A DNA stretch of 10,754 nt from a virus. Shown here one piece after another: positions 507-10,750 of the stretch (position 1 is the first letter of the stretch; every line of letters starts with the position of its first letter). Below the pieces are notes generated by a model. The model had not been told where the DNA came from, did not search any database, and saw nothing but the letters and a program-made list of their open reading frames with translations. The stretch lies in UHGV virus genome UHGV-0300898, one strand, 5' to 3'. The translations under genes and the position numbers were made by a program.

Positions 507-2801
507 TTACTTACCAGCAGCAGCTTTGCCTTCGCCAGCAACGTTACCTGCTACACCACCTTCGGTTTGTTTCTGACCGTTCTGTTCAACAGAAACATTG
601 TAAGCCAGTTTTTCTTCAACCAGTTTGGTGATGCCTTTAACCCAGATCAGACCAGTGATCGGGCAGTGGCAGATGTGCGCGTTACGCGGCTGTACGGCCA
701 GCTCTTTAGAGGTAGAGCCGTTACGCTGAATGTTGATGTTAGTAACCATGATCGGAGACCAGAAGTGGTTACCCCAGTTCAGCACGTTGTAGGAACCATC
801 GTCCGCAGTCGGAACTTTCAGGAACCATTGCAGACGACGAGTCCAGGAACCGTCAGCTGCGTTGTAGATACGCCAGCGGTCATCGTTGGTGGTGATCACT
901 TCGTATTCGTAGCGATCGCCCAGCAGACGTTGGTCGCCCTGTACCAGCAGCAGCATGGATGCAGTCGGTTCGTCGGTTGCAATAACAACCTTCGGCAGAA
1001 TGTCCGGATCGGCAGTGTACAGACGCAGCGCAGGAATGAAGCGAGATTCCTGGATAGCCTGAGTTACCTGATTACCGATACGCTGTACCAGGCCCTGACG
1101 AGCGTTGATCAGTGCATCTTTGGTATCCAGGGACTGTACAACTTCATCAACGTTGTAGTCAGACTCTTTGAACCACGGAGCAACCCAGTGACGGCCCAGA
1201 CCACGAATGGCCGGTTTGTCCCACGGAGTGATCATGCTTGCAGCAGCGTTACGTACCGCTTCGGTGTAAGACAGCGTCTGAGTGATAGCCAGCTGTTCGT
1301 TACGGATGTTAACTGCGGAAATCAGGTCGTCCAGACGTTCGGTATCGTCGTATTCAACACCAACCGGAGACTTGGTCAGAATCGGAGAACCGTATTGCAG
1401 TTTGTAGTTTTCTTGTTCCCAGATTGGGTCAAGCAGCAGACCCTGGGTACGACGGTTTTCGTTGGTACGAGTACCATCGAAGCGCCAGCCCATCAGTTCG
1501 AGCTTCAGACCTTCCAGAACAACTTTGCCGGTACCAGATTTGGTATCAACCTTGTTACCGGTAGCGTCGTACAGACCTTCGATTTCCAGTTTGTGACCCG
1601 CGATGTCAACTTTACCACCAAACTGACCGGTAGTGAACAGAGACATGTTGATGGTGATCACATAACGCAGGGTGTAGGAGTTCTGTTCCAGTGTTTTCAG
1701 AGCCGGAATAGCTGCACCAGTCCAGTCGGTAGTTTTCGCGTTCAGAGAGAATGCGGTACGACGGAATTGCAGTACCAGCTCACGGCCATCGCCTTCAGCA
1801 GGACGCTGGAAGGTTGCGAACTGCATGTCACGAACGTGCAGTTTGATGAATTTACCTGCTTTCGCTTCTTCGGTCGGTTTACGTACAGAAATCAGCAGGC
1901 TGCCCAGAGCACAACCCGGTGCGATTTCATCAGTTTCGTCGTAACCTTCCTGAACGATACCCGGATGCGCAGACAGCTGGAACAGGTTCAGAGTGTCTTT
2001 AGCAAAGCTCAGGTAGTTAGTCGGGTACGGAGGTACACGGCCCAGACGAACAGATTCGTTCGGTACCAGATCTTCGCTTACGAAGTATTCAGCGTTTTCA
2101 CCGGTTTCCATTACGTAAGGAACGATGTTGATCGCTTCGTCCTGGAGAACGGTGTGGTCGGTCAGCGCGTTGTGCAGCGGACGACGATGATCTTCAACAA
2201 CGTCTTTGCTCAGCAGTGCGTTCATTACACCGCGAGAAACGGTGGTCACTTTGGTACGTACGGTAATACCAACATCGTTGGTGTCAACAGTGATGGTCGG
2301 GAACAGAGTCTCAGCGAAACGAGACTGGGTTTCCAGAGCACGTACGTTCAGCGTCCAGGTCAGACCCAGGTTTTTGTCGTAGTCTTTGTTGGTGTAGTAT
2401 TCCTGAGCGACAACCATACGCTCTTTGCCCCAGTCGCCGTTACCAGCTTGGGAACCAGGAATCGCAACGTCCAGGTTAAAACGGCTATGGAATTCTGGTT
2501 TAGCGTATTCTTGCGCTACTTTTTCTTGCAGGTCCATACCGTGACCAGCAGCACCCAGAATCATTGCAGAAGCAACTTCCGCAGCGTGGGACATTTTCTT
2601 ACCGCCAGCAAACGCGTTTGCGTAGTGCTGTGCAGCGTCGTCACGCAGGGTACCAAAAACTTTCGTGTTGCTACGTACAGATTCACCAGCAACGATGGTG
2701 TTCCACATTTCGCCAGCACTGTTGTTACTAATGACGCTTTGTACCAGCGAGTTACCAGCTTGTACGAGTTTCTCCAGATTAGAGATTCGGGTATCTTTCA
2801 T
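507..2801 (-). CDS. major virion structural protein, probably major capsid protein of a jumbo-type phage (764 aa); tail sheath is the alternative
   Basis: Longest ORF in the window. Codon usage is strongly biased toward high-expression codons (CGT, GGT, CTG, AAC, ACC, GAA), so strongly that the antisense strand carries an uninterrupted 752-aa artefactual ORF. SD TAAGGT lies 9 nt upstream of the ATG and a strong terminator follows the stop. Size matches the ~750-aa capsid proteins of phiKZ-like phages as I recall them. No homology search was possible. Confidence 0.85.
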   Translation of the reverse strand: MKDTRISNLEKLVQAGNSLVQSVISNNSAGEMWNTIVAGESVRSNTKVFGTLRDDAAQHYANAFAGGKKMSHAAEVASAMILGAAGHGMDLQEKVAQEYAKPEFHSRFNLDVAIPGSQAGNGDWGKERMVVAQEYYTNKDYDKNLGLTWTLNVRALETQSRFAETLFPTITVDTNDVGITVRTKVTTVSRGVMNALLSKDVVEDHRRPLHNALTDHTVLQDEAINIVPYVMETGENAEYFVSEDLVPNESVRLGRVPPYPTNYLSFAKDTLNLFQLSAHPGIVQEGYDETDEIAPGCALGSLLISVRKPTEEAKAGKFIKLHVRDMQFATFQRPAEGDGRELVLQFRRTAFSLNAKTTDWTGAAIPALKTLEQNSYTLRYVITINMSLFTTGQFGGKVDIAGHKLEIEGLYDATGNKVDTKSGTGKVVLEGLKLELMGWRFDGTRTNENRRTQGLLLDPIWEQENYKLQYGSPILTKSPVGVEYDDTERLDDLISAVNIRNEQLAITQTLSYTEAVRNAAASMITPWDKPAIRGLGRHWVAPWFKESDYNVDEVVQSLDTKDALINARQGLVQRIGNQVTQAIQESRFIPALRLYTADPDILPKVVIATDEPTASMLLLVQGDQRLLGDRYEYEVITTNDDRWRIYNAADGSWTRRLQWFLKVPTADDGSYNVLNWGNHFWSPIMVTNINIQRNGSTSKELAVQPRNAHICHCPITGLIWVKGITKLVEEKLAYNVSVEQNGQKQTEGGVAGNVAGEGKAAAGK

Positions 2802-2813
2802 TTGTTTAATACC

Positions 2814-3338
2814 TTAATGAGATAAATGACATGCGTATAATTGCGTCAGCACTTCGTTAGCGGCAAACTGCGTTGAGGTACTGAAGCAGTCATCCACGAC
2901 GCGAGTCTTGGTACGCATATATTTAAAAAGTTCTGCGCAGAACATCTTTTTCGCAGCGTGGTCTTCACCCGAAGAAAAACCCGAACCGGACTTTGCTTCT
3001 GCAAATGACGCCACAATCGTATCACCACGTTGAGTAAACACCCAACGTACGCGACAAGGAATTGTTTCCCCATATAAATCGTCAAGGGAAACCTTTTCGC
3101 CTGATTCGACCAGACGTAACACCTGATCATAATATTTACCTGGAAGCACAGGCGGAGCCATCAGTGCTTTATAAATAGCAGAACGACTTACTTCAGGTAA
3201 GATGATAGAACTGAAACCATTCGGACAGTCATATAACCAGTTAAAGAACCCTGCCTGGAGCAATTCTATACTTTTAACGGCAGCGCCTTTATCTATGTTA
3301 GGTTGAACTTCCCACGGTGGACTAAAACGAATTTGCAT
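2814..3338 (-). CDS. hypothetical protein (174 aa)
   Basis: Complete ORF in the track. SD GGAG lies 9 nt upstream of the ATG at 3338. Its stop TAA (2816..2814) overlaps the SD of the downstream 764-aa gene, giving a tightly packed co-directional pair. Confidence 0.7.
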   Translation of the reverse strand: MQIRFSPPWEVQPNIDKGAAVKSIELLQAGFFNWLYDCPNGFSSIILPEVSRSAIYKALMAPPVLPGKYYDQVLRLVESGEKVSLDDLYGETIPCRVRWVFTQRGDTIVASFAEAKSGSGFSSGEDHAAKKMFCAELFKYMRTKTRVVDDCFSTSTQFAANEVLTQLYACHLSH

Positions 3339-3351
3339 TTAAGGATGCTCC

Positions 3352-4914
3352 ATGAATAACAAAATGATGTTGATAACCGCCTTAGCCACATTATACGCTG
3401 AAAGTCTTCTGACCGATCCTGAAAAGGACCACGACATCATAAGAAAAGTGCTGTTAGAGGCTAAGCTTCCTGATTACGCAGAGGAAGGTGACGAACGTGC
3501 CGCCCTCGTCGAAATCAAGGATATCATCACATCCATCATAGACGGCGGTATGCCTTACGACCACACAAACGTCATGAAACGTTTGAAACTGGCCACTACG
3601 CAAATACGTCCTCTATACGATACGATTACCAAATTCCTGGAAGATGATATTCCAGAAGAACCAGAAGCACGCATCGAGCATCTTAATCGCCAAGTAGCAC
3701 AATACTACTTTCAGTTACGTCAAGCTATTCAAGGCGTACAACTGAAACAAAAATTGGGTCGTACGTTAGGCGCACTGAACGGTACCGAAACGCGCGTTGA
3801 TTTACAAACGGCGCTCAACGACCTTAAGGATACCTTATCCACGTTCAGTGAACGCTCTCATAATAAGATTCCTTCTCTGGTAGGGGAATTGATTACTGAC
3901 AATAAAGCACCTTTCGTGCACGTATTCGACTCTATCAGTAAGAAAGCGGCAGGGAACGGGTTGCGTACAGGTTGGAAAGCAATTAACCAGATGCTCGGTT
4001 GTAACAAAGGGATCACCGAAGAACTCTGGCTGATGCCTGCTCTCCCCTTTAACTGTAAGTCATTATTCAGTTTATTGCTCTCTATTAGCATTCCCGTTTT
4101 CAACACCCCAGAAAAGGTGATGGCGAATGTTAAGGGTGATCTACAACCGGTTATTCTAGATTTAAGTTTAGAAAACGAATTGGATGTTAACTTGGCTTAC
4201 GCGTATCAGGCACTATACGGACACTTTGAAGGTACAGCCCCGGTAATGGTTGCGCCAGAAACCGCAACTGACGAAGAAAAAGCGTCACATAATGCACAAA
4301 TGTCAGACTACCTCTGTAGTAAGATGCGGGCGAACGGTTGGGAGTATATTTTCCAAAAACACACAAACTCCGATTTTAAAATTCACTATTTAAACGATTT
4401 GATTTTAGATTTAAAACGTCGAGGTTATCATGTAGCTGGAATACGCGGAGACTATTTCGGTACTATCAGCAAAGCAGGGCACGGTAACGGCATTGCGGGT
4501 AGCGACATTAAAGAAATTTATCGTATCGCGCGAAACATCCAAGTGGTACGTAATCGTGGTTTCCTGTTAGCACCACACCAAATCTCACCAGAAGGCAAAA
4601 AATTAAAAGCACTCGACCCAGCAAGTTTCTGTAAGAACTTACCTGGTCGTGGTCTTCACGACAACTGCTCTAGCTTAGACAACGAAGCTGACGGTGAGAT
4701 GTATTTTAACAAACGTGTCGTCAACGGTCACAGCTATTTAGAAGTACAACGCGGTAAACACCGTACCATTATTGATACCAAAGAAGCTTATCATTATACT
4801 GTAATACCTTTCCGCGATGTTGGCATTTTGCCATGGGATTGTGATAAAGAAGAAACTGTAACAGCCTCGTCGATTAACGTATTTACCGGCGGCATGGGTG
4901 ACGAACTCTTTTGA
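3352..4914 (+). CDS. hypothetical protein (520 aa); helical, charged N-terminal region; no recognisable catalytic motif
   Basis: Complete ORF. SD AAGGA at 3340-3344 with a 7-nt spacer to the ATG. TGA stop is followed immediately by a GC hairpin at 4919-4936. The only plus-strand gene in the window. Confidence 0.8.
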   Translation: MNNKMMLITALATLYAESLLTDPEKDHDIIRKVLLEAKLPDYAEEGDERAALVEIKDIITSIIDGGMPYDHTNVMKRLKLATTQIRPLYDTITKFLEDDIPEEPEARIEHLNRQVAQYYFQLRQAIQGVQLKQKLGRTLGALNGTETRVDLQTALNDLKDTLSTFSERSHNKIPSLVGELITDNKAPFVHVFDSISKKAAGNGLRTGWKAINQMLGCNKGITEELWLMPALPFNCKSLFSLLLSISIPVFNTPEKVMANVKGDLQPVILDLSLENELDVNLAYAYQALYGHFEGTAPVMVAPETATDEEKASHNAQMSDYLCSKMRANGWEYIFQKHTNSDFKIHYLNDLILDLKRRGYHVAGIRGDYFGTISKAGHGNGIAGSDIKEIYRIARNIQVVRNRGFLLAPHQISPEGKKLKALDPASFCKNLPGRGLHDNCSSLDNEADGEMYFNKRVVNGHSYLEVQRGKHRTIIDTKEAYHYTVIPFRDVGILPWDCDKEETVTASSINVFTGGMGDELF

Positions 4915-4918
4915 GTCT

Positions 4919-4936
4919 GGGGAGCTTCGGCTCCCC
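4919..4936 (+). terminator. stable hairpin GGGGAGC-UUCG-GCUCCCC directly after the 520-aa gene; no U-tract, so either a 3' stability element or a non-canonical terminator
   Basis: Perfect 7-bp GC stem with a UUCG tetraloop, 4 nt after the stop codon. Followed by CTATAACCCC rather than a T-run. Confidence 0.4.
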
Positions 4937-5019
4937 CTATAACCCCTTATGCGTCTCGAAAAACAAAAAAAAACAGAAGGCTATTAATTATGAACGGAAA
5001 ACAACTACCGAACTAAGTA

Positions 5020-5046
5020 GGGGGTGGTAGCAACACCCCCTTTATT
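5020..5046 (+). terminator. intrinsic terminator, GGGGGTG-loop-CACCCCC plus TTTATT (first member of a three-copy terminator family)
   Basis: 7-bp stem 5020-5026/5034-5040, 7-nt loop, then TTTATT at 5041-5046. Preceded by an 8-codon mini-ORF (4990..5016) that has an SD. Confidence 0.55.
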
Positions 5047-5159
5047 AGTTAGTAACTTATCTCCTTAGAGGTGGTTGCTGAACATTATGGTTGTTAACCG
5101 TTTTCATTACCTTTCGTAATGTTGTAAAAACGTCAACAACTTTATGTGTTGATGCCGTA

Positions 5160-5189
5160 CAGCAGAGACTGGCGGAACAGTCTCTGCTG
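5160..5189 (+). other. perfect 12-bp hairpin (CAGCAGAGACTG / CAGTCTCTGCTG, 6-nt loop) abutting repeat copy 1
   Basis: Exact reverse-complement arms at 5160-5171 and 5178-5189. The position-equivalent hairpin before copy 2 (5561-5586) has an unrelated sequence but the same architecture. Confidence 0.7.
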
Positions 5190-5232
5190 CTTTAACTTCT
5201 CTTTGGAAAAGTTAAAGCTATGAAAAGGGGTG
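5187..5232 (+). repeat. 46-nt conserved element, copy 1 (CTGCTTTAACTTCTCTTTGGAAAAGTTAAAGCTATGAAAAGGGGTG); contains a 9-bp inverted repeat CTTTAACTT-N10-AAGTTAAAG
   Basis: 45/46 identical to 5586..5631, the single mismatch being 5224 A versus 5623 T. The copies are offset by exactly 399 bp. The internal inverted repeat is 5190-5198/5209-5217. Confidence 0.85.
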
Positions 5233-5250
5233 GTGGTGCACCCCTTTTTA
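5227..5250 (+). terminator. intrinsic terminator GGGGTG-GTGGTG-CACCCC plus TTTTTA (family copy 2)
   Basis: 6-bp GC stem, 6-nt loop, then a T5 run at 5245-5249. It begins inside the conserved element. Confidence 0.55.
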
Positions 5251-5291
5251 TTATACTTACGACCACCATCTCGGCAGGTTACTGTACGAGG

Positions 5292-5326
5292 AGGAGAGGC
5301 GCTGACACGCCTCTCCTTTATTTGTT
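5292..5326 (+). terminator. intrinsic terminator, stem GGAGAGGCG/CGCCTCTCC with loop CTGACA, followed by TTTATTTGTT
   Basis: Perfect 9-bp stem 5293-5301/5308-5316, extendable with flanking A-T and G-U pairs, followed by a T-rich tract. Confidence 0.6.
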
Positions 5327-5498
5327 AGTAGTGTTCACTCCTCTTTTCAGTGAATATCCGCGTGAAACGGTTGGTAGACGGTTTTAACCGTTTATCCATG
5401 CCGAGCTGACTATACTTGTAGATACGTTGCTGTAAATTGGTCTTTGCTGCACTCTGCTCTGCAAGCATTTTGTCGGTAAAGTAGTAACCATTGTTCAT
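5325..5498 (-). CDS. small basic hypothetical protein, 57 aa (MNNGYYFTDKMLAEQSAAKTNLQQRIYKYSQLGMDKRLKPSTNRFTRIFTEKRSEHY)
   Basis: Below the 60-aa cutoff of the ORF track and found by hand translation. ATG at 5498..5496 is preceded by SD GAGGG with a 6-nt spacer; TAA stop at 5327..5325. It lies between the two copies of the 46-nt element. Confidence 0.35.
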   Translation of the reverse strand: MNNGYYFTDKMLAEQSAAKTNLQQRIYKYSQLGMDKRLKPSTNRFTRIFTEKRSEHY

Positions 5499-5531
5499 GG
5501 TAAGCCCTCTTTGTAGGGTGATTAAAGAAAT

Positions 5532-5551
5532 CCACTACGGAAACGTAGTGG
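5532..5551 (+). other. perfect 8-bp hairpin CCACTACG-GAAA-CGTAGTGG with a GNRA-type tetraloop
   Basis: Exact inverted repeat with a GAAA loop, about 35 nt upstream (minus sense) of the 57-aa ORF start. Confidence 0.6.
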
Positions 5552-5560
5552 TGTTGTAAA

Positions 5561-5586
5561 GGGTACGCTGTAGCACCAGCGTACCC
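5561..5586 (+). other. perfect 10-bp hairpin (GGGTACGCTG / CAGCGTACCC, loop TAGCAC) abutting repeat copy 2
   Basis: Same position relative to the conserved element as the 5160-5189 hairpin, with a completely different stem sequence. Confidence 0.7.
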
Positions 5587-5631
5587 TGCTTTAACTTCTC
5601 TTTGGAAAAGTTAAAGCTATGATAAGGGGTG
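5586..5631 (+). repeat. 46-nt conserved element, copy 2
   Basis: See copy 1; 45/46 identity at a 399-bp offset. Confidence 0.85.
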
Positions 5632-5656
5632 TGACAGCACCCCTTTATTTTATTTA
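5626..5656 (+). terminator. intrinsic terminator GGGGTG-TGACAG-CACCCC plus TTTATTTTATTT (family copy 3)
   Basis: Same stem as 5227-5244 with a different loop, followed by a long T-rich tract. Confidence 0.6.
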
Positions 5657-5749
5657 GTAGTTACTTCTCCTTTCGGTGAAGATTTGTACTCGTCGATTAT
5701 TAGAAGGTTTAAACCTTTTATTTAATCCAAGCTGTTGAATTTGCGAAAA

Positions 5750-5799
5750 TAAATAAAGTGTACCCCTAATCCTTTTCGGGATTAGGGGTTGCTTTTATT
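5750..5799. terminator. bidirectional intrinsic terminator (10-bp perfect stem CCCCTAATCC/GGATTAGGGG)
   Basis: Stem 5763-5772/5779-5788 with loop TTTTCG. A T-rich tract follows on the plus strand (5789-5799) and an A-rich tract precedes it (5750-5760), which is a U-tract on the minus strand. Sits directly after the stop of the 271-aa minus-strand gene. Confidence 0.75.
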
Positions 5800-6610: not shown

Positions 6611-6625
6611 CTTTTATGCTCCAAT

Positions 6626-6659
6626 TAATAAAAAAATTAAGGGCACCCGAAGGTGCCTT
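6626..6659 (-). terminator. intrinsic terminator for the small lipoprotein-like gene (stem with UUCG tetraloop plus UAAUUUUUUUAUU in minus-strand RNA)
   Basis: Stem 6640-6647/6652-6659 (8 bp including one G-U pair) with plus-strand loop CGAA. The plus-strand A-run 6631-6636 gives a U7 tract on the minus strand, 5 nt after the TAA stop at 6665. Confidence 0.75.
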
Positions 6660-6664
6660 ATACA

Positions 6665-6808
6665 TTAACCACGACCAGTGCACTGTGCAACGGAATTACC
6701 GTTGTCGATGCAAGTGTCGTAGCCTTTGTCGATATCCAGGTACAGGCAACCCAGAACAACAGCGATAACAACAGCGAAGATAGCTTTTTTGTGTTTTACA
6801 GAAATCAT
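6665..6808 (-). CDS. small putative lipoprotein or membrane protein, 47 aa (MISVKHKKAIFAVVIAVVLGC|LYLDIDKGYDTCIDNGNSVAQCTGRG)
   Basis: Below the ORF-track cutoff. ATG at 6808..6806 is preceded by the perfect SD AGGAG with a 7-nt spacer. N-terminus has a basic region, then a hydrophobic stretch, then VVLGC, which fits the lipobox pattern. Leu at +2. Dedicated terminator downstream. Confidence 0.55.
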   Translation of the reverse strand: MISVKHKKAIFAVVIAVVLGCLYLDIDKGYDTCIDNGNSVAQCTGRG

Positions 6809-6902
6809 GATATAACTCCTAATTAGGTATTCGATAAATGAGTATTACGTAAACTCTCACCTAGGTAATATATATCTGAAATCTTTTTGAATCCATATAC
6901 CC

Positions 6903-6932
6903 TCTAGAACGCTCTAAAACGCATTCTAACGC
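6903..6932. repeat. three tandem 10-nt repeats (TCTAGAACGC / TCTAAAACGC / ATTCTAACGC) in the upstream region of the small lipoprotein gene
   Basis: Period of 10 bp, one helical turn. The first two units are 9/10 identical and the third shares CTAACGC. Located 95-125 nt upstream (minus sense) of the ATG at 6808. Confidence 0.6.
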
Positions 6933-7000
6933 AATTTTCTTTTTAAAGGGTAATTAGTCGTCTTAATGGAGAAATGACTTCTGTGTGGCGTTTAGGGATA

Positions 7001-7046
7001 AATAAAAGGTATTCCCGTTACCCACAGAGGTAACGGGAAGTTTTTA
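7001..7046. terminator. bidirectional intrinsic terminator (11-bp stem TTCCCGTTACC/GGTAACGGGAA) ending the minus-strand operon
   Basis: Stem 7012-7022/7029-7039 with loop CACAGA. The plus-strand T5 run at 7041-7045 overlaps the operon stop codon, and the A-rich tract at 7001-7008 gives UUUUAUU on the minus strand. Confidence 0.75.
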
Positions 7047-9736: not shown

Positions 9737-10750
9737 TTAATCCCTCGCATAGCGTAACAACAAATACACCATCGGGATGTAATAGAATTGCGCATCCTTC
9801 GGCAAACGGTAAACTTCTTCAAACAACCGCAACGCAATTACTGTCGACAGTGGGCGCTTATTCAGATAGAGATATAAACCGTATTCTAATAACGAACTGT
9901 ACGAGCCCTCGTAAAACGATGGGCTTAACAAATACGGCTTGTAGGTCAGCGGTAAAAACGCAGGGATCGATTCGCCTTCGTTACCCCGATAGTTCTCCAC
10001 TTCAACCGGTTCAAACTCCGTCCACTTCGGCCACTGTCCAGGAAAACGTTGTGCCATCCCATAACCTGGTTTTAATTCATCGGTAAAGAATCGGGTATCC
10101 GAAATTAATGACCAGGTCACAGAATTCCGATGCTGCATCGTGCGGAAGGTTTTTACCTGCCAGACACTGGAATCACGTTTGTAATCCGCTAAGAACGTTG
10201 GCGATTGATTTAACAATGCTGTCCAGACCGTTTCAATATCTTCCACACGCATTGGTGGGTGCGGGTAGATTTGAATATCTTTACCGACGGTCCGTAAGCC
10301 TACAGAGCGTACAAACTGTGCCAAGAACACATCGTAATACGCGCGACTACGCAACCCATCACTATGTCGATCGTGGGGGAAAAGCAACGTTGCCGTTTCC
10401 CCATCGTAAAACCGTTTTACGTAAGTCTGTTCAATATCCGCAATCGCATCAACAATTTTCAAAAACGCACGGTATTCTTTCGGTGTCAGTAACGTATCAC
10501 CGCCCGTCCAGGCACGTTCAGAAACGTAATAATACTCACGAACCGTACAACGACGAATGGTTTCTGCAACGCCCGGATCAACTTCAAACAGCAACGTATA
10601 CTCGATGTTATACGTTGCAATTTTGTTATTAGACATCCGCACGACGTTAGTGACGTTGAACAACGCAAACCGTCCGTCTCCGATCGGGGCAACGAAAAAA
10701 CACCCTTCATTGGGAATCACCGAGTTCGCCATTGTTGCGGCACCGGACAT
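9737..10750 (-). CDS. hypothetical protein (at least 337 aa); the N-terminus may extend beyond the window end
   Basis: Long open frame. The first ATG is only 4 nt from the window edge, so neither an RBS nor an upstream extension can be assessed. First gene of the co-directional operon in this window. Confidence 0.7.
   Translation of the reverse strand: MSGAATMANSVIPNEGCFFVAPIGDGRFALFNVTNVVRMSNNKIATYNIEYTLLFEVDPGVAETIRRCTVREYYYVSERAWTGGDTLLTPKEYRAFLKIVDAIADIEQTYVKRFYDGETATLLFPHDRHSDGLRSRAYYDVFLAQFVRSVGLRTVGKDIQIYPHPPMRVEDIETVWTALLNQSPTFLADYKRDSSVWQVKTFRTMQHRNSVTWSLISDTRFFTDELKPGYGMAQRFPGQWPKWTEFEPVEVENYRGNEGESIPAFLPLTYKPYLLSPSFYEGSYSSLLEYGLYLYLNKRPLSTVIALRLFEEVYRLPKDAQFYYIPMVYLLLRYARD

What the first reader, a model, noticed from the sequence alone, without database searches (positions are those of the whole stretch)
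4915..5794. 880-bp hairpin-dense non-coding island between convergent genes
Between the stop of the plus-strand 520-aa gene (4914) and the stop of the minus-strand 271-aa gene (5795) there are at least ten perfect or near-perfect hairpins: 4919-4936, 5020-5040, 5160-5189, 5190-5217, 5227-5244, 5293-5316, 5532-5551, 5561-5586, 5626-5643 and 5763-5788. There is also the 14-nt perfect palindrome AAGGTTTAAACCTT at 5704-5717. Several carry T-tracts and would act as stacked plus-strand terminators. This is far more structure than is needed simply to insulate two convergent genes in an otherwise tightly packed genome. It suggests a locus for small structured RNAs or a recombination hotspot.
Basis: seen in the sequence. 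Interest (0 to 1): 0.6.

Follow-up and report, generated by a model that had tools for sequence, protein, structure and literature searches.

The report
Decayed small-gene array with flipping hairpins
The hairpin-dense "non-coding island" of this giant phage is a fast-changing array of tiny accessory genes, each bracketed by hairpins; most copies here have been deleted, and the hairpin loops flip orientation between closely related phages.

Summary
The 880 nt fold far better than shuffles (z about -10 and -21). Perfect hairpins are 10-30 times denser here than in the flanks.

The island is not simply non-coding. The window comes from an SPN3US-like, phiKZ-type jumbo phage. In 21 relatives this interval (693-1354 nt) holds one to four small minus-strand genes (48-61 aa, five paralogous types) in varying order. 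This window keeps one intact gene (5325-5498) and three deletion remnants. The deletions kept the hairpins, which explains the dense packing.

In relatives, 46 of 48 intact small genes have a perfect hairpin 7-21 nt after the stop and another 30-63 nt before the start. I read the hairpins as cassette terminators and leader elements.

A conserved 30-nt hairpin (B) is fully paired only in minus-strand RNA and never inverts. Its neighbours occur with exactly reverse-complemented loops on identical stems, in about ten hairpin classes across the relatives. This is the signature of template switching.

The closest analogue is the PeSL cassettes of T4-like hyperplastic regions. No sigma-70 promoter is present and the elements are not dispersed. 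I rate it a new variant of a known kind, of moderate interest.

The parts
4919..4936 (+). Hairpin after the helicase stop (GGGGAGC TTCG GCTCCCC). It has a cUUCGg tetraloop in the helicase sense and no T-tract.
   Evidence: dG -14.1. The loop is identical in 21 of 21 relatives and never inverted. It is conserved in SPN3US with loop TTAG.
5019..5041 (.). Hairpin C0 (AGGGGGTG-N7-CACCCCCT), followed by TTTATT on the + strand. It is the 3' hairpin of the first small-gene cassette.
   Evidence: The loop is hypervariable among relatives and includes reverse-complement pairs such as TGGTCG/CGACCA.
5057..5107 (-). Remnant of small gene type g1. It is a 16-codon ORF (MKTVNNHNVQQPPLRR) left by a 118-nt deletion between two TTTTC microhomologies.
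   Evidence: The alignment with L004, L005 and L007, which carry the intact 53-aa gene. Also tblastn and translation plus junction check.
5105..5121 (-). Small hairpin CATTAC-GAAAG-GTAATG (minus-strand sense). The Shine-Dalgarno-like GAAAGG lies in the loop and the g1 ATG lies in the stem.
   Evidence: Read from the sequence. dG is -4.3 on the - strand. The role is inferred only.
5160..5189 (.). Hairpin A: a perfect 12-bp palindrome with a 6-nt loop (GCGGAA).
   Evidence: The loop is the exact reverse complement (TTCCGC) in L004, L040 and L041 on the same stem. L005 and L021 carry a compensatory C-G to T-A stem change.
5189..5218 (-). Hairpin B, copy 1 (GCTTTAACTTCTC TTTG GAAAAGTTAAAGC). This is the conserved 30-nt joint between cassettes.
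   Evidence: There are two identical copies in the window. In IMG/VR it occurs only at this locus. About 40 copies in 21 genomes all have the same orientation. It carries a U.G pair in the minus sense in 24 of 24 distinct copies, which is a C.A mismatch in the plus sense. dG is -14.4 (-) against -11.5 (+).
5223..5248 (.). Hairpin C (AAAAGGGGTG-N6-CACCCCTTTT), a bidirectional terminator-like hairpin. It is the 3' hairpin of the deleted D-type gene.
   Evidence: T-runs lie on both sides.
5257..5292 (-). Remnant of small gene type D. It keeps the last 11 codons plus the stop (SSYSNLPRWWS*).
   Evidence: tblastn and translation. The intact 61-aa gene is in L004, L024 and others. The junction with unrelated sequence lies at the base of hairpin E.
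5290..5319 (.). Hairpin E (GGAGGAGAGGCG CTGACA CGCCTCTCCTTT). It is the 3' hairpin of the intact 57-aa gene. The T-tract is on the + strand only.
   Evidence: The loop is inverted (TGTCAG) in L040 and L041.
5325..5498 (-). Intact small gene (type B, 57 aa).
   Evidence: ORF. Homologues at 73-96% identity, E down to 4e-29. Variable sites by codon position are 8/5/20 for this gene and 31/19/74 for the five gene types together. An in-frame 4-codon deletion variant exists, P0003.
5532..5551 (.). Hairpin D (CCACTACG GAAA CGTAGTGG) in the 5' leader of the 57-aa gene.
   Evidence: Relatives carry GAAA (5) or TTTC (10) on the stem CCATTACG, which differs from this window's stem by a compensatory change.
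5560..5587 (.). Hairpin A', a perfect 11-bp palindrome with loop TAGCAC.
   Evidence: The loop is GTGCTA, the exact reverse complement, in L005. The related stem AAGGTACGCTG carries CACCAA (8) or TTGGTG (2). Seven of 11 stem pairs show two-sided compensatory change across copies.
5588..5617 (-). Hairpin B, copy 2, identical to 5189-5218.
5624..5645 (.). Hairpin C' (AAGGGGTG TGACAG CACCCCTT), followed by TTTATTTTATTT. It is the 3' hairpin of the truncated C-type gene.
   Evidence: The loop is CTGTCA in L005. Across relatives TGACAG occurs 9 times and CTGTCA 4 times.
5654..5743 (-). Remnant of small gene type C. It keeps the last 29 codons plus the stop (QIQQLGLNKRFKPSNNRRVQIFTERRSNY*) and has no start codon. 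It contains the palindrome AAGGTTTAAACCTT (5704-5717) as codons K-R-F-K-P.
   Evidence: Translations and tblastn to the intact 55-aa gene of L007.
5762..5789 (.). Bidirectional terminator-like hairpin after the 271-aa gene (ACCCCTAATCC TTTTCG GGATTAGGGGT).
   Evidence: One search detects it on both strands. The loop is TTTTCG in 13 relatives, CGAAAA in 7 and CGAGAA in 1.
5150..5254 (.). First copy of the 105-nt direct repeat (A + B + C + T-tract). The second copy is at 5549-5653, 399 nt away. Only the B+C part, about 66 nt, is well conserved.
   Evidence: repeat D1, 75% identity. Homology blocks start at 5187-5190 and 5586-5588 and end at 5252-5255 and 5647-5654.

Best explanation
The island is a hypervariable array of small accessory-gene cassettes in an SPN3US-like, phiKZ-type jumbo phage, seen here in a largely decayed state.

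The cassette. Each cassette is a 48-61-aa gene on the minus strand. The genes belong to a lineage-specific paralogous family. A GC-rich hairpin lies 7-21 nt after the stop, with A/T tracts that make it terminator-like in one or both directions. One or more hairpins lie 30-63 nt before the start. Between neighbouring genes the hairpin order on the minus strand is C (terminator), then B (conserved and orientation-fixed), then A (perfect palindrome), then a leader hairpin, then the ribosome-binding site.

State in this window. Deletions have removed most of three of the four genes and kept their hairpins. About 570 nt of stacked hairpins therefore surround one intact 57-aa gene.

Inferred working.
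- The C-type hairpins terminate or attenuate transcription. They insulate each cassette from its neighbours and from the converging helicase transcript.
- B acts in the minus-strand RNA, as a leader, processing or stability element.
- B is also the only long sequence shared between otherwise unrelated cassettes, so it may serve as a homology patch for cassette exchange.
- The perfect palindromes are kept perfect, and are repeatedly inverted, by replication template switching.

Shown: the gene family and its decay, the hairpin-gene geometry, the length and order polymorphism, the loop inversions, and the strand asymmetry of B.

Inferred: termination, RNA-level function, the mechanism of inversion, and the role in recombination.
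For: Context. Major capsid protein, DnaB-like helicase and head-tail genes of phiKZ/SPN3US type flank the island. SPN3US annotates two 48-aa genes at the same place, SPAsTU annotates one, and other Seoulviruses annotate one or two.

Architecture. There are 21 distinct versions of the interval, 693-1354 nt long. Five gene types occur in different orders, and this window reads g1-remnant | D-remnant | B | C-remnant.

Coding. Variable sites by codon position total 31/19/74 over the five types. A shared core motif, KQxxFNQR-hydrophobic-xE, is present. A profile search finds 65 clusters, all 44-87 aa, mostly on contigs of about 220-244 kb, many of the rest on short fragments.

Geometry. 46 of 48 intact genes have a perfect hairpin 7-21 nt after the stop and 30-63 nt before the start.

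Structure. 99.2% of stem cells are paired in 24 distinct C-B-A blocks, and 10 pairs show two-sided change. z-scores come.

Strand. B has a U.G pair in the minus sense in 24 of 24 copies, 0 of about 40 copies are inverted, and dG is -14.4 against -11.5.

Inversions. Exact reverse-complement loops occur on identical stems in about ten hairpin classes. In the stricter set of stems of at least 8 bp, 6 of 7 island classes are inverted against 0 of 12 outside. One further case is in the Seoulvirus clade. All four loop combinations occur among genomes with the same architecture.

The variability is structural. Among five genomes with the same architecture, point variation is lower inside the island (39 variable columns per kb) than in the flanks (77 per kb).

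Background. phiKZ and 201phi2-1 have more than 100 mapped terminators, many single-gene transcription units and bidirectional terminators between convergent genes (PMC10914365, PMC11512511). Template switching creates and maintains perfect hairpins and inverts their loops (PMC8794818).
Against: - There are no transcript data. Termination, promoters and RNA processing are all inferred.
- Hairpin E and the helicase hairpin lack a U-tract in the sense of the gene they follow. Most T-tracts are on the + strand, opposite to the small genes.
- No promoter could be identified. The sigma-70 scan is at chance level, and the promoter motifs of this phage group are not available to me.
- Homology breakpoints are not significantly concentrated at hairpin edges (6 of 22 clusters, p = 0.36).
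- Compensatory changes in perfect palindromes can arise from template switching without selection, so covariation here is weak evidence of function.
- Four of the eight protein clusters for the 57-aa gene carry frame disruptions, so even the intact gene may be under relaxed constraint.
Confidence: 0.62

Rival explanations
1. The repeated A-B-C units (5150-5254 and 5549-5653) are plus-strand small-RNA genes. Each would be a three-hairpin RNA of about 100 nt ending in a canonical GC-hairpin plus U-tract terminator, made antisense to or between the small ORFs.
For: The 105-nt repeat ends exactly at a hairpin plus T-tract on the + strand. phiKZ-type phages make short RNAs from a start site closely followed by a terminator (PMC10914365, PMC11512511). 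The fold z-score is strongly negative on the + strand.
Against: B is better paired in the minus sense (U.G against C.A, -14.4 against -11.5 kcal/mol), and this asymmetry is fixed in all copies. Loops of A and C are freely inverted and substituted, so there is no conserved single-stranded seed. No Rfam family reaches its threshold; the best hit is McaS at 23.9 bits against a gathering score of 42. No plus-strand promoter was found. TATG between B and C is not conserved: TAAG, TTTG and GAGG variants occur.
Confidence: 0.12
2. The hairpins have no present function. They are leftover terminators of deleted genes plus palindromes created and kept perfect by template switching in near-neutral DNA.
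For: Three of the four cassettes in this window are remnants. Erwinia phages Asesino and phiEaH2 have only about 115-120 nt between the helicase and the next gene, so the array is dispensable at this position. Loop orientation is unconstrained. Template switching alone can keep stems perfect (PMC8794818).
Against: The hairpin-gene geometry holds at 46 of 48 intact genes in 21 genomes. B is conserved in sequence and orientation in about 40 copies, with one compensatory pair. Point variation in the island is lower than in the flanking genes. These points argue for constraint in genomes where the genes are intact. For the orphaned hairpins of this particular window, this reading may well be right.
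Confidence: 0.16
3. The island is a DNA-level cis element next to the helicase gene. Candidates are a replication origin, a helicase or primosome loading zone, or a packaging or recombination signal that works through extruded hairpins.
For: It lies directly downstream of the DnaB-like helicase gene. The homologous interval is the densest cluster of perfect palindromes in the SPN3US genome. Loop inversions indicate that the hairpins take part in replication-associated strand switching. SPN3US encodes an SbcD-like palindrome nuclease.
Against: Cumulative GC skew in SPN3US has no extreme at 67 kb. There are no iterons and no AT-rich unwinding block; GC is 0.38-0.45, as in the flanks. Content and length vary freely (693-1354 nt), and the array is absent at this position in Asesino and phiEaH2. 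B is found nowhere else in the genome.
Confidence: 0.05

Closest known systems
PeSL (promoter-early stem-loop) regulatory cassettes in the hyperplastic regions of T4-like phages (Arbiol et al. 2010, PMC2839356; Comeau et al. 2014, PMC4122927)
   Same: Both are short intergenic cassettes containing a GC-rich (polyG/polyC) stem-loop. The stem-loop lies between the stop codon of one small gene of unknown function and the start of the next. Both sit in a region where closely related phages differ by insertion, deletion and replacement of small genes. In both, the repeated cassette is the only homology between unrelated neighbours.
   Different: No sigma-70-like promoter is present; phiKZ-type phages use their own RNA polymerases. 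The conserved element B is confined to this one locus, with 1-3 copies, rather than about 50 dispersed copies. Each junction holds three to four hairpins in series rather than one. Recombination at the cassettes is not demonstrated. Loop inversion has not been reported for PeSLs, as far as I found.
Intrinsic and bidirectional terminators and single-gene transcription units of phiKZ-like phages (Putzeys et al. 2024, PMC10914365; 201phi2-1 study, PMC11512511)
   Same: The phage lineage is related and GC-rich hairpins follow genes. Bidirectional termination regions lie between convergent genes. Many transcription units hold a single small gene flanked by a start site and a terminator. Paired terminator motifs also occur.
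   Different: Those elements were mapped experimentally in Pseudomonas phages; nothing is mapped here. The density in this island is the highest of the whole genome in SPN3US. Several hairpins here are no longer next to a gene.
Minute hairpin-loop inversions and template-switch mutations. These are known from plastid non-coding DNA (own knowledge; see PMC6005162 and PMC9653739) and from rRNA and microRNA genes (Monttinen and Loytynoja 2022, PMC8794818).
   Same: Loops are exactly reverse-complemented between unchanged inverted-repeat stems. The inversions are recurrent (homoplasious) among close relatives. Multi-base compensatory stem changes occur.
   Different: Here the inversions are in a phage genome and concentrated in one interval of about 1 kb. 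About ten hairpin classes are affected. Gene terminators with UUCG-type tetraloops in the same genomes are not inverted.
phrog_18219, the 48-aa proteins of unknown function of SPN3US-like phages
   Same: Same genomic position, strand and size. They share the central FNQR-type motif with the window's 57-aa protein and its paralogues.
   Different: The window's protein does not hit the PHROG model; only the related E type hits it, weakly, at E = 0.11. The C-terminal KGLGG motif of the SPN3US proteins is absent.

Membership tests
PeSL cassettes (T4-like phages) | A stable stem-loop between the stop of the upstream ORF and the Shine-Dalgarno/start of the downstream ORF | tested here: met
   46 of 48 intact small genes have a hairpin 7-21 nt after the stop and 30-63 nt before the start. 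Hairpin energies are -11 to -22 kcal/mol.
PeSL cassettes (T4-like phages) | A strong sigma-70-like early promoter (-35/-10) within the cassette | tested here: not met
   The promoter scan found 3 sites against 2.5 +/- 1.5 in shuffles. The only minus-strand site in the island lies inside the 57-aa ORF.
PeSL cassettes (T4-like phages) | Location in a hyperplastic region next to small genes of unknown function that differ between close relatives | tested here: met
   The interval is 693-1354 nt, with five gene types in at least nine orders among 21 versions.
PeSL cassettes (T4-like phages) | Many copies dispersed over the genome (about 50) | tested here: not met
   The hairpin B pattern is found only at this locus, 1-2 exact copies per contig, in IMG/VR. 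There are no other copies in the window.
PeSL cassettes (T4-like phages) | Indels and replacements between relatives bounded by the cassettes (recombination at the cassette) | tested here: inconclusive
   B+C is the only block shared between unrelated cassettes, and the D-remnant junction lies at the base of hairpin E. However, endpoint clusters are not enriched at hairpin edges (6 of 22, p = 0.36).
Intrinsic (Rho-independent) terminator | A GC-rich stem-loop immediately followed by a U-tract in the transcribed sense | tested here: inconclusive
   Met on the + strand for C0, C, E, C' and the 271-aa gene hairpin. Met on the - strand (the sense of the small genes) for the 5532-5551 leader hairpin and the 271-aa gene hairpin (both called), and only a short T-run (TTTTC) follows C. 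It is weak for C0 and C' and absent for E on the - strand.
Intrinsic (Rho-independent) terminator | Transcripts end at the site in vivo or in vitro | not testable with these tools
   No transcript data are available for this phage.
Template-switch loop inversion | The loop is the exact reverse complement between sequences with identical inverted-repeat stems | tested here: met
   Examples are GCGGAA/TTCCGC, TAGCAC/GTGCTA, TGACAG/CTGTCA, TTTTCG/CGAAAA, GAAA/TTTC, CACCAA/TTGGTG, CCTATA/TATAGG, CGGTAA/TTACCG, CTGACA/TGTCAG and TGGTCG/CGACCA. Stems of 8-12 bp are far shorter than assembler k-mers, so a graph artefact is unlikely (inference).
Integron attC recombination site (considered for hairpin B) | Core sites RYYYAAC ... 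GTTRRRY, extrahelical bases, and a neighbouring IntI integrase | tested here: not met
   CTTTAAC ... GTTAAAG matches 6 of 7 positions in each box (read from the sequence). B is 30 nt, against at least about 57 nt for attC (own knowledge). No recombinase is among the window's proteins. This resemblance is a lead only.
Rfam RNA families / tRNA | A covariance-model score at or above the gathering threshold | tested here: not met
   The best hit is McaS at 23.9 bits against 42. No tRNA or tmRNA was found.
phrog_18219 small proteins | A significant match of the window's 57-aa protein to the family model | tested here: inconclusive
   The 57-aa protein gives no PHROG hit, and the related E type scores E = 0.11. 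The alignment shows shared position, size and central motif.

The most novel reading that the evidence does not exclude
The interval downstream of the helicase gene is a dedicated cassette-exchange site of nucleus-forming jumbo phages. Perfect DNA palindromes there would be generated, kept perfect and flipped by replication template switching, and perhaps cut by the phage's SbcCD-like hairpin nuclease. The orientation-fixed hairpin B would serve as the common joint. Together these features would drive rapid gain, loss and reshuffling of small accessory genes. This would be a hairpin-based analogue of PeSL or integron cassette systems, without a dedicated recombinase.
Probability: 0.15. Interest if true: 0.7.

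Novelty: new variant of a known kind. Interest (0 to 1): 0.45.

Why it matters
Accessory-gene turnover in phiKZ-like (Chimalliviridae) jumbo phages is poorly described.

This locus gives a compact, well-sampled example. One 0.7-1.4-kb interval holds a five-type family of 50-aa genes that are shuffled, duplicated and truncated among otherwise collinear genomes. The boundaries are built from hairpins. It extends the T4 "hyperplastic region / regulatory cassette" idea to a lineage that does not use host sigma-70 promoters.

It also supplies a clean natural data set of recurrent hairpin-loop inversions. About ten hairpin classes flip, next to a hairpin and tetraloop terminators that never flip. 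That contrast could be used to measure template-switch rates and to separate mutational from selective maintenance of RNA and DNA stems.

The practical lesson is that "non-coding, structure-rich" islands in phage genomes can be decayed small-gene arrays. Covariation in perfect palindromes is not by itself evidence of RNA function.

Tried and rejected
- Rfam scan at permissive E-values gave only sub-threshold chance hits. ARAGORN found no tRNA or tmRNA.
- Megablast and blastn of the island against 50,697 phage records gave no match beyond position 4936-4973. The island itself is absent from the isolate phage collection.
- The sigma-70 promoter scan was at chance level. I could not obtain phiKZ-type promoter consensus sequences from the papers, because the motifs are given only in figures. 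A candidate motif, TTTACAAC, occurs on the minus strand upstream of three genes and was left untested.
- Genome-wide dispersal of hairpin B is rejected.
- Enrichment of homology break points at hairpin edges is not significant.
- A replication origin or terminus inferred from GC skew has no support in SPN3US.
- An assembly artefact as the cause of loop inversion is rejected on first principles. Stems of 8-12 bp are far shorter than assembler k-mers. The same states recur in independent assemblies from NCBI, ENA, Logan and IMG/VR. The paper on "inverted loops" in assembly graphs concerns palindromic k-mers, not this case.
- Pfam and PHROG searches of the small proteins gave no function.
- I did not run a structure prediction, because it would not bear on the hairpin question.
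Full report
**Context.** The window belongs to a phiKZ-type jumbo phage close to Salmonella phage SPN3US (Seoulvirus).
- 507-2801(-) is a PhiKZ-type major capsid protein.
- 3352-4914(+) is a divergent DnaB-like helicase.
- 9737-10750(-) is a head-tail protein.
- The flanking genes are about 80% identical in DNA to SPN3US-like Salmonella, Escherichia and Erwinia phages.
- Nothing in 50,697 deposited phage genomes matches the island itself beyond position 4936-4973.

- Sliding 120-nt windows have a mean z of -4.0 and -4.3 (+/- strand) inside the island, against -0.6 and -0.8 in the rest of the window.
- The whole 880 nt folds with z = -10.5 (- strand) and -21.1 (+ strand).
- Terminator-like sites number 9, against 1.7 expected.
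- Perfect stems of at least 8 bp occur at 9.2 per kb in the island and 0.30 per kb outside. The contrast repeats in 13 related loci of 10-20 kb.
- In the complete SPN3US genome there are 103 such hairpins, or 0.43 per kb. The homologous interval is the single densest 700-nt window.

So the structure is not only above chance. This is the hairpin hotspot of the genome.

**It is not simply non-coding.**
- SPN3US annotates two 48-aa minus-strand genes at this position, SPAsTU annotates one, and other Seoulviruses annotate one or two.
- The window has a 57-aa ORF at 5325-5498(-). Its homologues reach 73-96% identity (E down to 4e-29) and lie on contigs of up to 226 kb.
- I collected 21 distinct versions of the interval between the helicase stop and the 271-aa gene stop, from IMG/VR, NCBI, ENA and Logan assemblies. 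They range from 693 to 1354 nt.
- They hold five types of small gene (g1 53 aa, B 57 aa, C 55 aa, D 61 aa, E 52 aa) in at least nine different orders. Examples are g1-E, B-E, B-C, B-D, g1-D, g1-C-E, B-D-E and B-D-C.
- These are real genes. Variable sites fall 31/19/74 on codon positions 1/2/3.
- The types share a central KQxxFNQR-hydrophobic-xE motif with the SPN3US proteins, which belong to phrog_18219.
- A profile search finds only 65 clusters, all 44-87 aa, mostly on jumbo-phage-sized contigs (many of the rest on short fragments) from Escherichia, Shigella, Salmonella and Erwinia sources. No function is known.

**Anatomy of this window.** Read against its relatives, the island is four cassettes, three of them broken.
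1. g1 is reduced to a 16-codon ORF (5057-5107) by a 118-nt deletion between two TTTTC repeats.
2. D is reduced to its last 11 codons plus stop (5257-5292). The junction lies at the foot of hairpin E.
3. B is intact (5325-5498).
4. C is reduced to its last 29 codons plus stop, with no start codon (5654-5743).

The deletions removed coding sequence and kept the hairpins. That is why the hairpins look stacked. The 399-nt direct repeat (5150-5254 and 5549-5653) is the hairpin block A-B-C that sits between neighbouring genes.

**How hairpins relate to genes.**
- Of 48 intact small genes in the 21 versions, 46 have a perfect hairpin of at least 7 bp starting 7-21 nt after the stop. 46 have one 30-63 nt upstream of the start.
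- Between two genes the order on the minus strand is: stop, A-rich spacer, C-type hairpin (GGGGTG-N6-CACCCC), about 10 nt, hairpin B, hairpin A, then a leader hairpin (D type) and the start.
- The C-type hairpins have T-runs on the + strand and, for C, on both strands. The 271-aa gene hairpin is bidirectional.
- This geometry is that of single-gene units with their own terminators. Such units are mapped experimentally in phiKZ and 201phi2-1. Those phages have more than 100 terminators, many one-gene transcription units and bidirectional termination regions between convergent genes (PMC10914365, PMC11512511).
- That these hairpins terminate transcription here is my inference, and it has weak points. 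Hairpin E and the helicase hairpin lack a U-tract in the sense of the gene they follow. Most T-tracts are on the strand opposite to the small genes.

**Hairpin B is different from the rest.**
- GCTTTAACTTCTC-TTTG-GAAAAGTTAAAGC occurs twice in the window. In IMG/VR it occurs only at this locus.
- In 24 distinct C-B-A blocks, 99.2% of stem positions pair.
- B has one position that is U.G in the minus sense in 24 of 24 copies, and therefore C.A in the plus sense. It also has one compensatory A-U to U-A pair.
- It is more stable as minus-strand RNA (-14.4 against -11.5 kcal/mol).
- Many copies have a GAAA loop in the minus sense.
- None of about 40 copies is inverted.

B is thus orientation-constrained, and in the sense of the small genes. 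This argues against the plus-strand small-RNA reading of the A-B-C unit. B plus C (about 66 nt) is also the only block shared between otherwise unrelated cassettes.

**Loop inversions.** This is the most unexpected result. Most perfect hairpins of the island occur in both loop orientations among the relatives, as exact reverse complements on identical stems.

| Stem | Loop states (number of versions) |
|---|---|
| CAGCAGAGACTG | GCGGAA / TTCCGC |
| AGGGTACGCTG | TAGCAC / GTGCTA |
| AAGGTACGCTG | CACCAA (8) / TTGGTG (2) |
| AGTAGGGACTG | CCTATA (4) / TATAGG (2), and CGGTAA / TTACCG |
| (A)AGGGGTG | TGACAG (9) / CTGTCA (4), and TGTCAG / CTGACA |
| AGGAGAGGCG | CTGACA / TGTCAG |
| CCATTACG | GAAA (5) / TTTC (10) |
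| ACCCCTAATCC | TTTTCG (13) / CGAAAA (7) |

- With stems of at least 8 bp, 6 of 7 island hairpin classes show both states, against 0 of 12 classes in the 10-20 kb of flanks.
- Only about four of those 12 outside classes are intergenic terminators. Of the two I examined, one (after the capsid gene) has a UUCG tetraloop in the sense of its gene and one (7012-7039) has a 6-nt loop. The contrast is therefore suggestive rather than decisive.
- The helicase hairpin (cUUCGg) is identical in 21 of 21 versions.
- Genomes with the same architecture show all four combinations of loop states at pairs of hairpins 275-570 nt apart. So either flipping is recurrent or recombination within the island is intense.
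- The Seoulvirus clade shows one such flip at the homologous position.
- An assembly artefact is unlikely. The stems are far shorter than assembler k-mers, and the states recur in independent data sets.
- The pattern is the known signature of replication template switching. That process also copies one stem arm onto the other and so keeps palindromes perfect (PMC8794818). It is familiar from plastid non-coding DNA.
- One consequence follows. The abundant two-sided "compensatory" changes in hairpin A (7 of 11 pairs) cannot be taken as proof of selection on RNA structure.

**Is it a recombination hotspot?**
- Structurally, yes. Length, gene content and gene order vary, truncated copies accumulate, and loops flip. 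Meanwhile point variation in the island (39 variable columns per kb) is lower than in the flanking genes (77 per kb) among five genomes with the same architecture.
- My crude test of whether homology break points cluster at hairpin edges was not significant (6 of 22 clusters, p = 0.36). I therefore do not claim that the hairpins are the crossover points.
- SPN3US encodes an SbcD-like palindrome nuclease and an SMC-domain protein. These could turn extruded hairpins into recombinogenic breaks. This is a lead only.

**Rivals.**
- Plus-strand sRNA genes. The unit ends in a good + strand terminator. Against it stand the asymmetry of B, the unconstrained loops, the lack of a promoter and the lack of an Rfam match.
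- Functionless debris. This is plausible for the orphaned hairpins of this window. It is not plausible for the conserved geometry and for B in genomes with intact genes.
- Replication origin or another essential DNA element. SPN3US has no GC-skew extreme at the homologous interval, there are no iterons, the content is freely variable, and the array is absent at this position in Erwinia phages Asesino and phiEaH2.

**Comparison with what is known.**
- In the way it works, the nearest system is the PeSL cassettes of T4-like hyperplastic regions (PMC2839356, PMC4122927). Those are terminator stem-loops between small genes of unknown function, in regions where close relatives differ by cassette-sized indels.
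- It is not a PeSL. The defining sigma-70 promoter is absent and the conserved element is not dispersed.
- A resemblance of B to integron attC core sites (6 of 7 positions per box) is noted, but no other attC feature is present.

**Verdict.** The "non-coding" premise is wrong. The "recombination hotspot" idea is supported in the sense of structural hypervariability. The "small RNA locus" idea is not supported, though it is not excluded either. I rate this a new variant of a known kind: a regulatory-cassette-bounded array of small accessory genes, in a lineage and with features (serial palindromes, recurrent loop flipping, one oriented joint hairpin) not described for such arrays. Interest is moderate.

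Noticed in passing
window 567-2825 (+): A 752-aa ORF (TTG start) runs antisense to almost the whole major capsid gene (507-2801, -). It has no Pfam or PHROG match. It is probably a codon-bias artefact.
   Followed up: partly
window 3338-3352: The 174-aa gene (-) and the helicase gene (+) diverge with only 13 nt between their start codons. Both promoters must therefore lie inside the neighbouring coding sequence.
   Followed up: no
window 5654-5797 (-): The C-type gene remnant is in the same frame as the 271-aa gene. After that gene's TAA (5795-5797), 46 sense codons follow up to the remnant's stop. This is most likely a one-in-three coincidence, but stop-codon read-through would add a basic tail.
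   Followed up: no
L024-L033, L042-L051 (NCBI GCA_ assemblies): Near-complete genomes of this phage lineage (contigs of 199-226 kb) sit inside NCBI isolate assemblies labelled Escherichia coli, Shigella and Salmonella. This suggests carriage (pseudolysogeny or carrier state) or culture contamination.
   Followed up: no
window 6611-7043: This is a second small-ORF region. It has a 47-aa ORF at 6665-6808(-) that is also called in relatives. A perfect 11-bp hairpin at 7012-7039 lies after the 268-aa gene. Its 6-nt loop shows point changes but is never inverted in 14 genomes.
   Followed up: partly
window 7893, 5559, 5127, 4004 (- strand): TTACAAC (usually TTTACAAC) occurs four times on the minus strand and never on the plus strand. 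Three of the four lie 20-61 nt upstream of minus-strand gene starts (the 268-aa gene, the 57-aa gene and the g1 remnant). It is a candidate phage promoter element.
   Followed up: partly
L062 21020-22168 and L065 18900-21410 (SPN3US record 21020-22168 and 168900-171410): SPN3US encodes an SbcD-like subunit of a palindrome-specific endonuclease and an SMC-domain protein. Such an enzyme could act on the island's DNA hairpins.
   Followed up: no
L042, L044, L050 about 12695-14746, compared with L043, L045 about 12461-14759: The major capsid gene is called as 683 aa in some relatives and as 761-764 aa in others. This may be a start-site, frameshift or annotation difference.
   Followed up: no
L062-L066 (SPN3US genome), near positions 1, 113.7 kb, 167.5 kb and 239.7 kb: Four other 700-nt windows hold three perfect hairpins each, including both ends of the deposited genome. 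These may be further small hairpin clusters.
   Followed up: no
P0005-P0008 (relatives of the 57-aa protein): Four of the eight protein clusters for the 57-aa gene have frame-shifted N- or C-termini. Either the gene decays often in nature or these are assembly errors.
   Followed up: no
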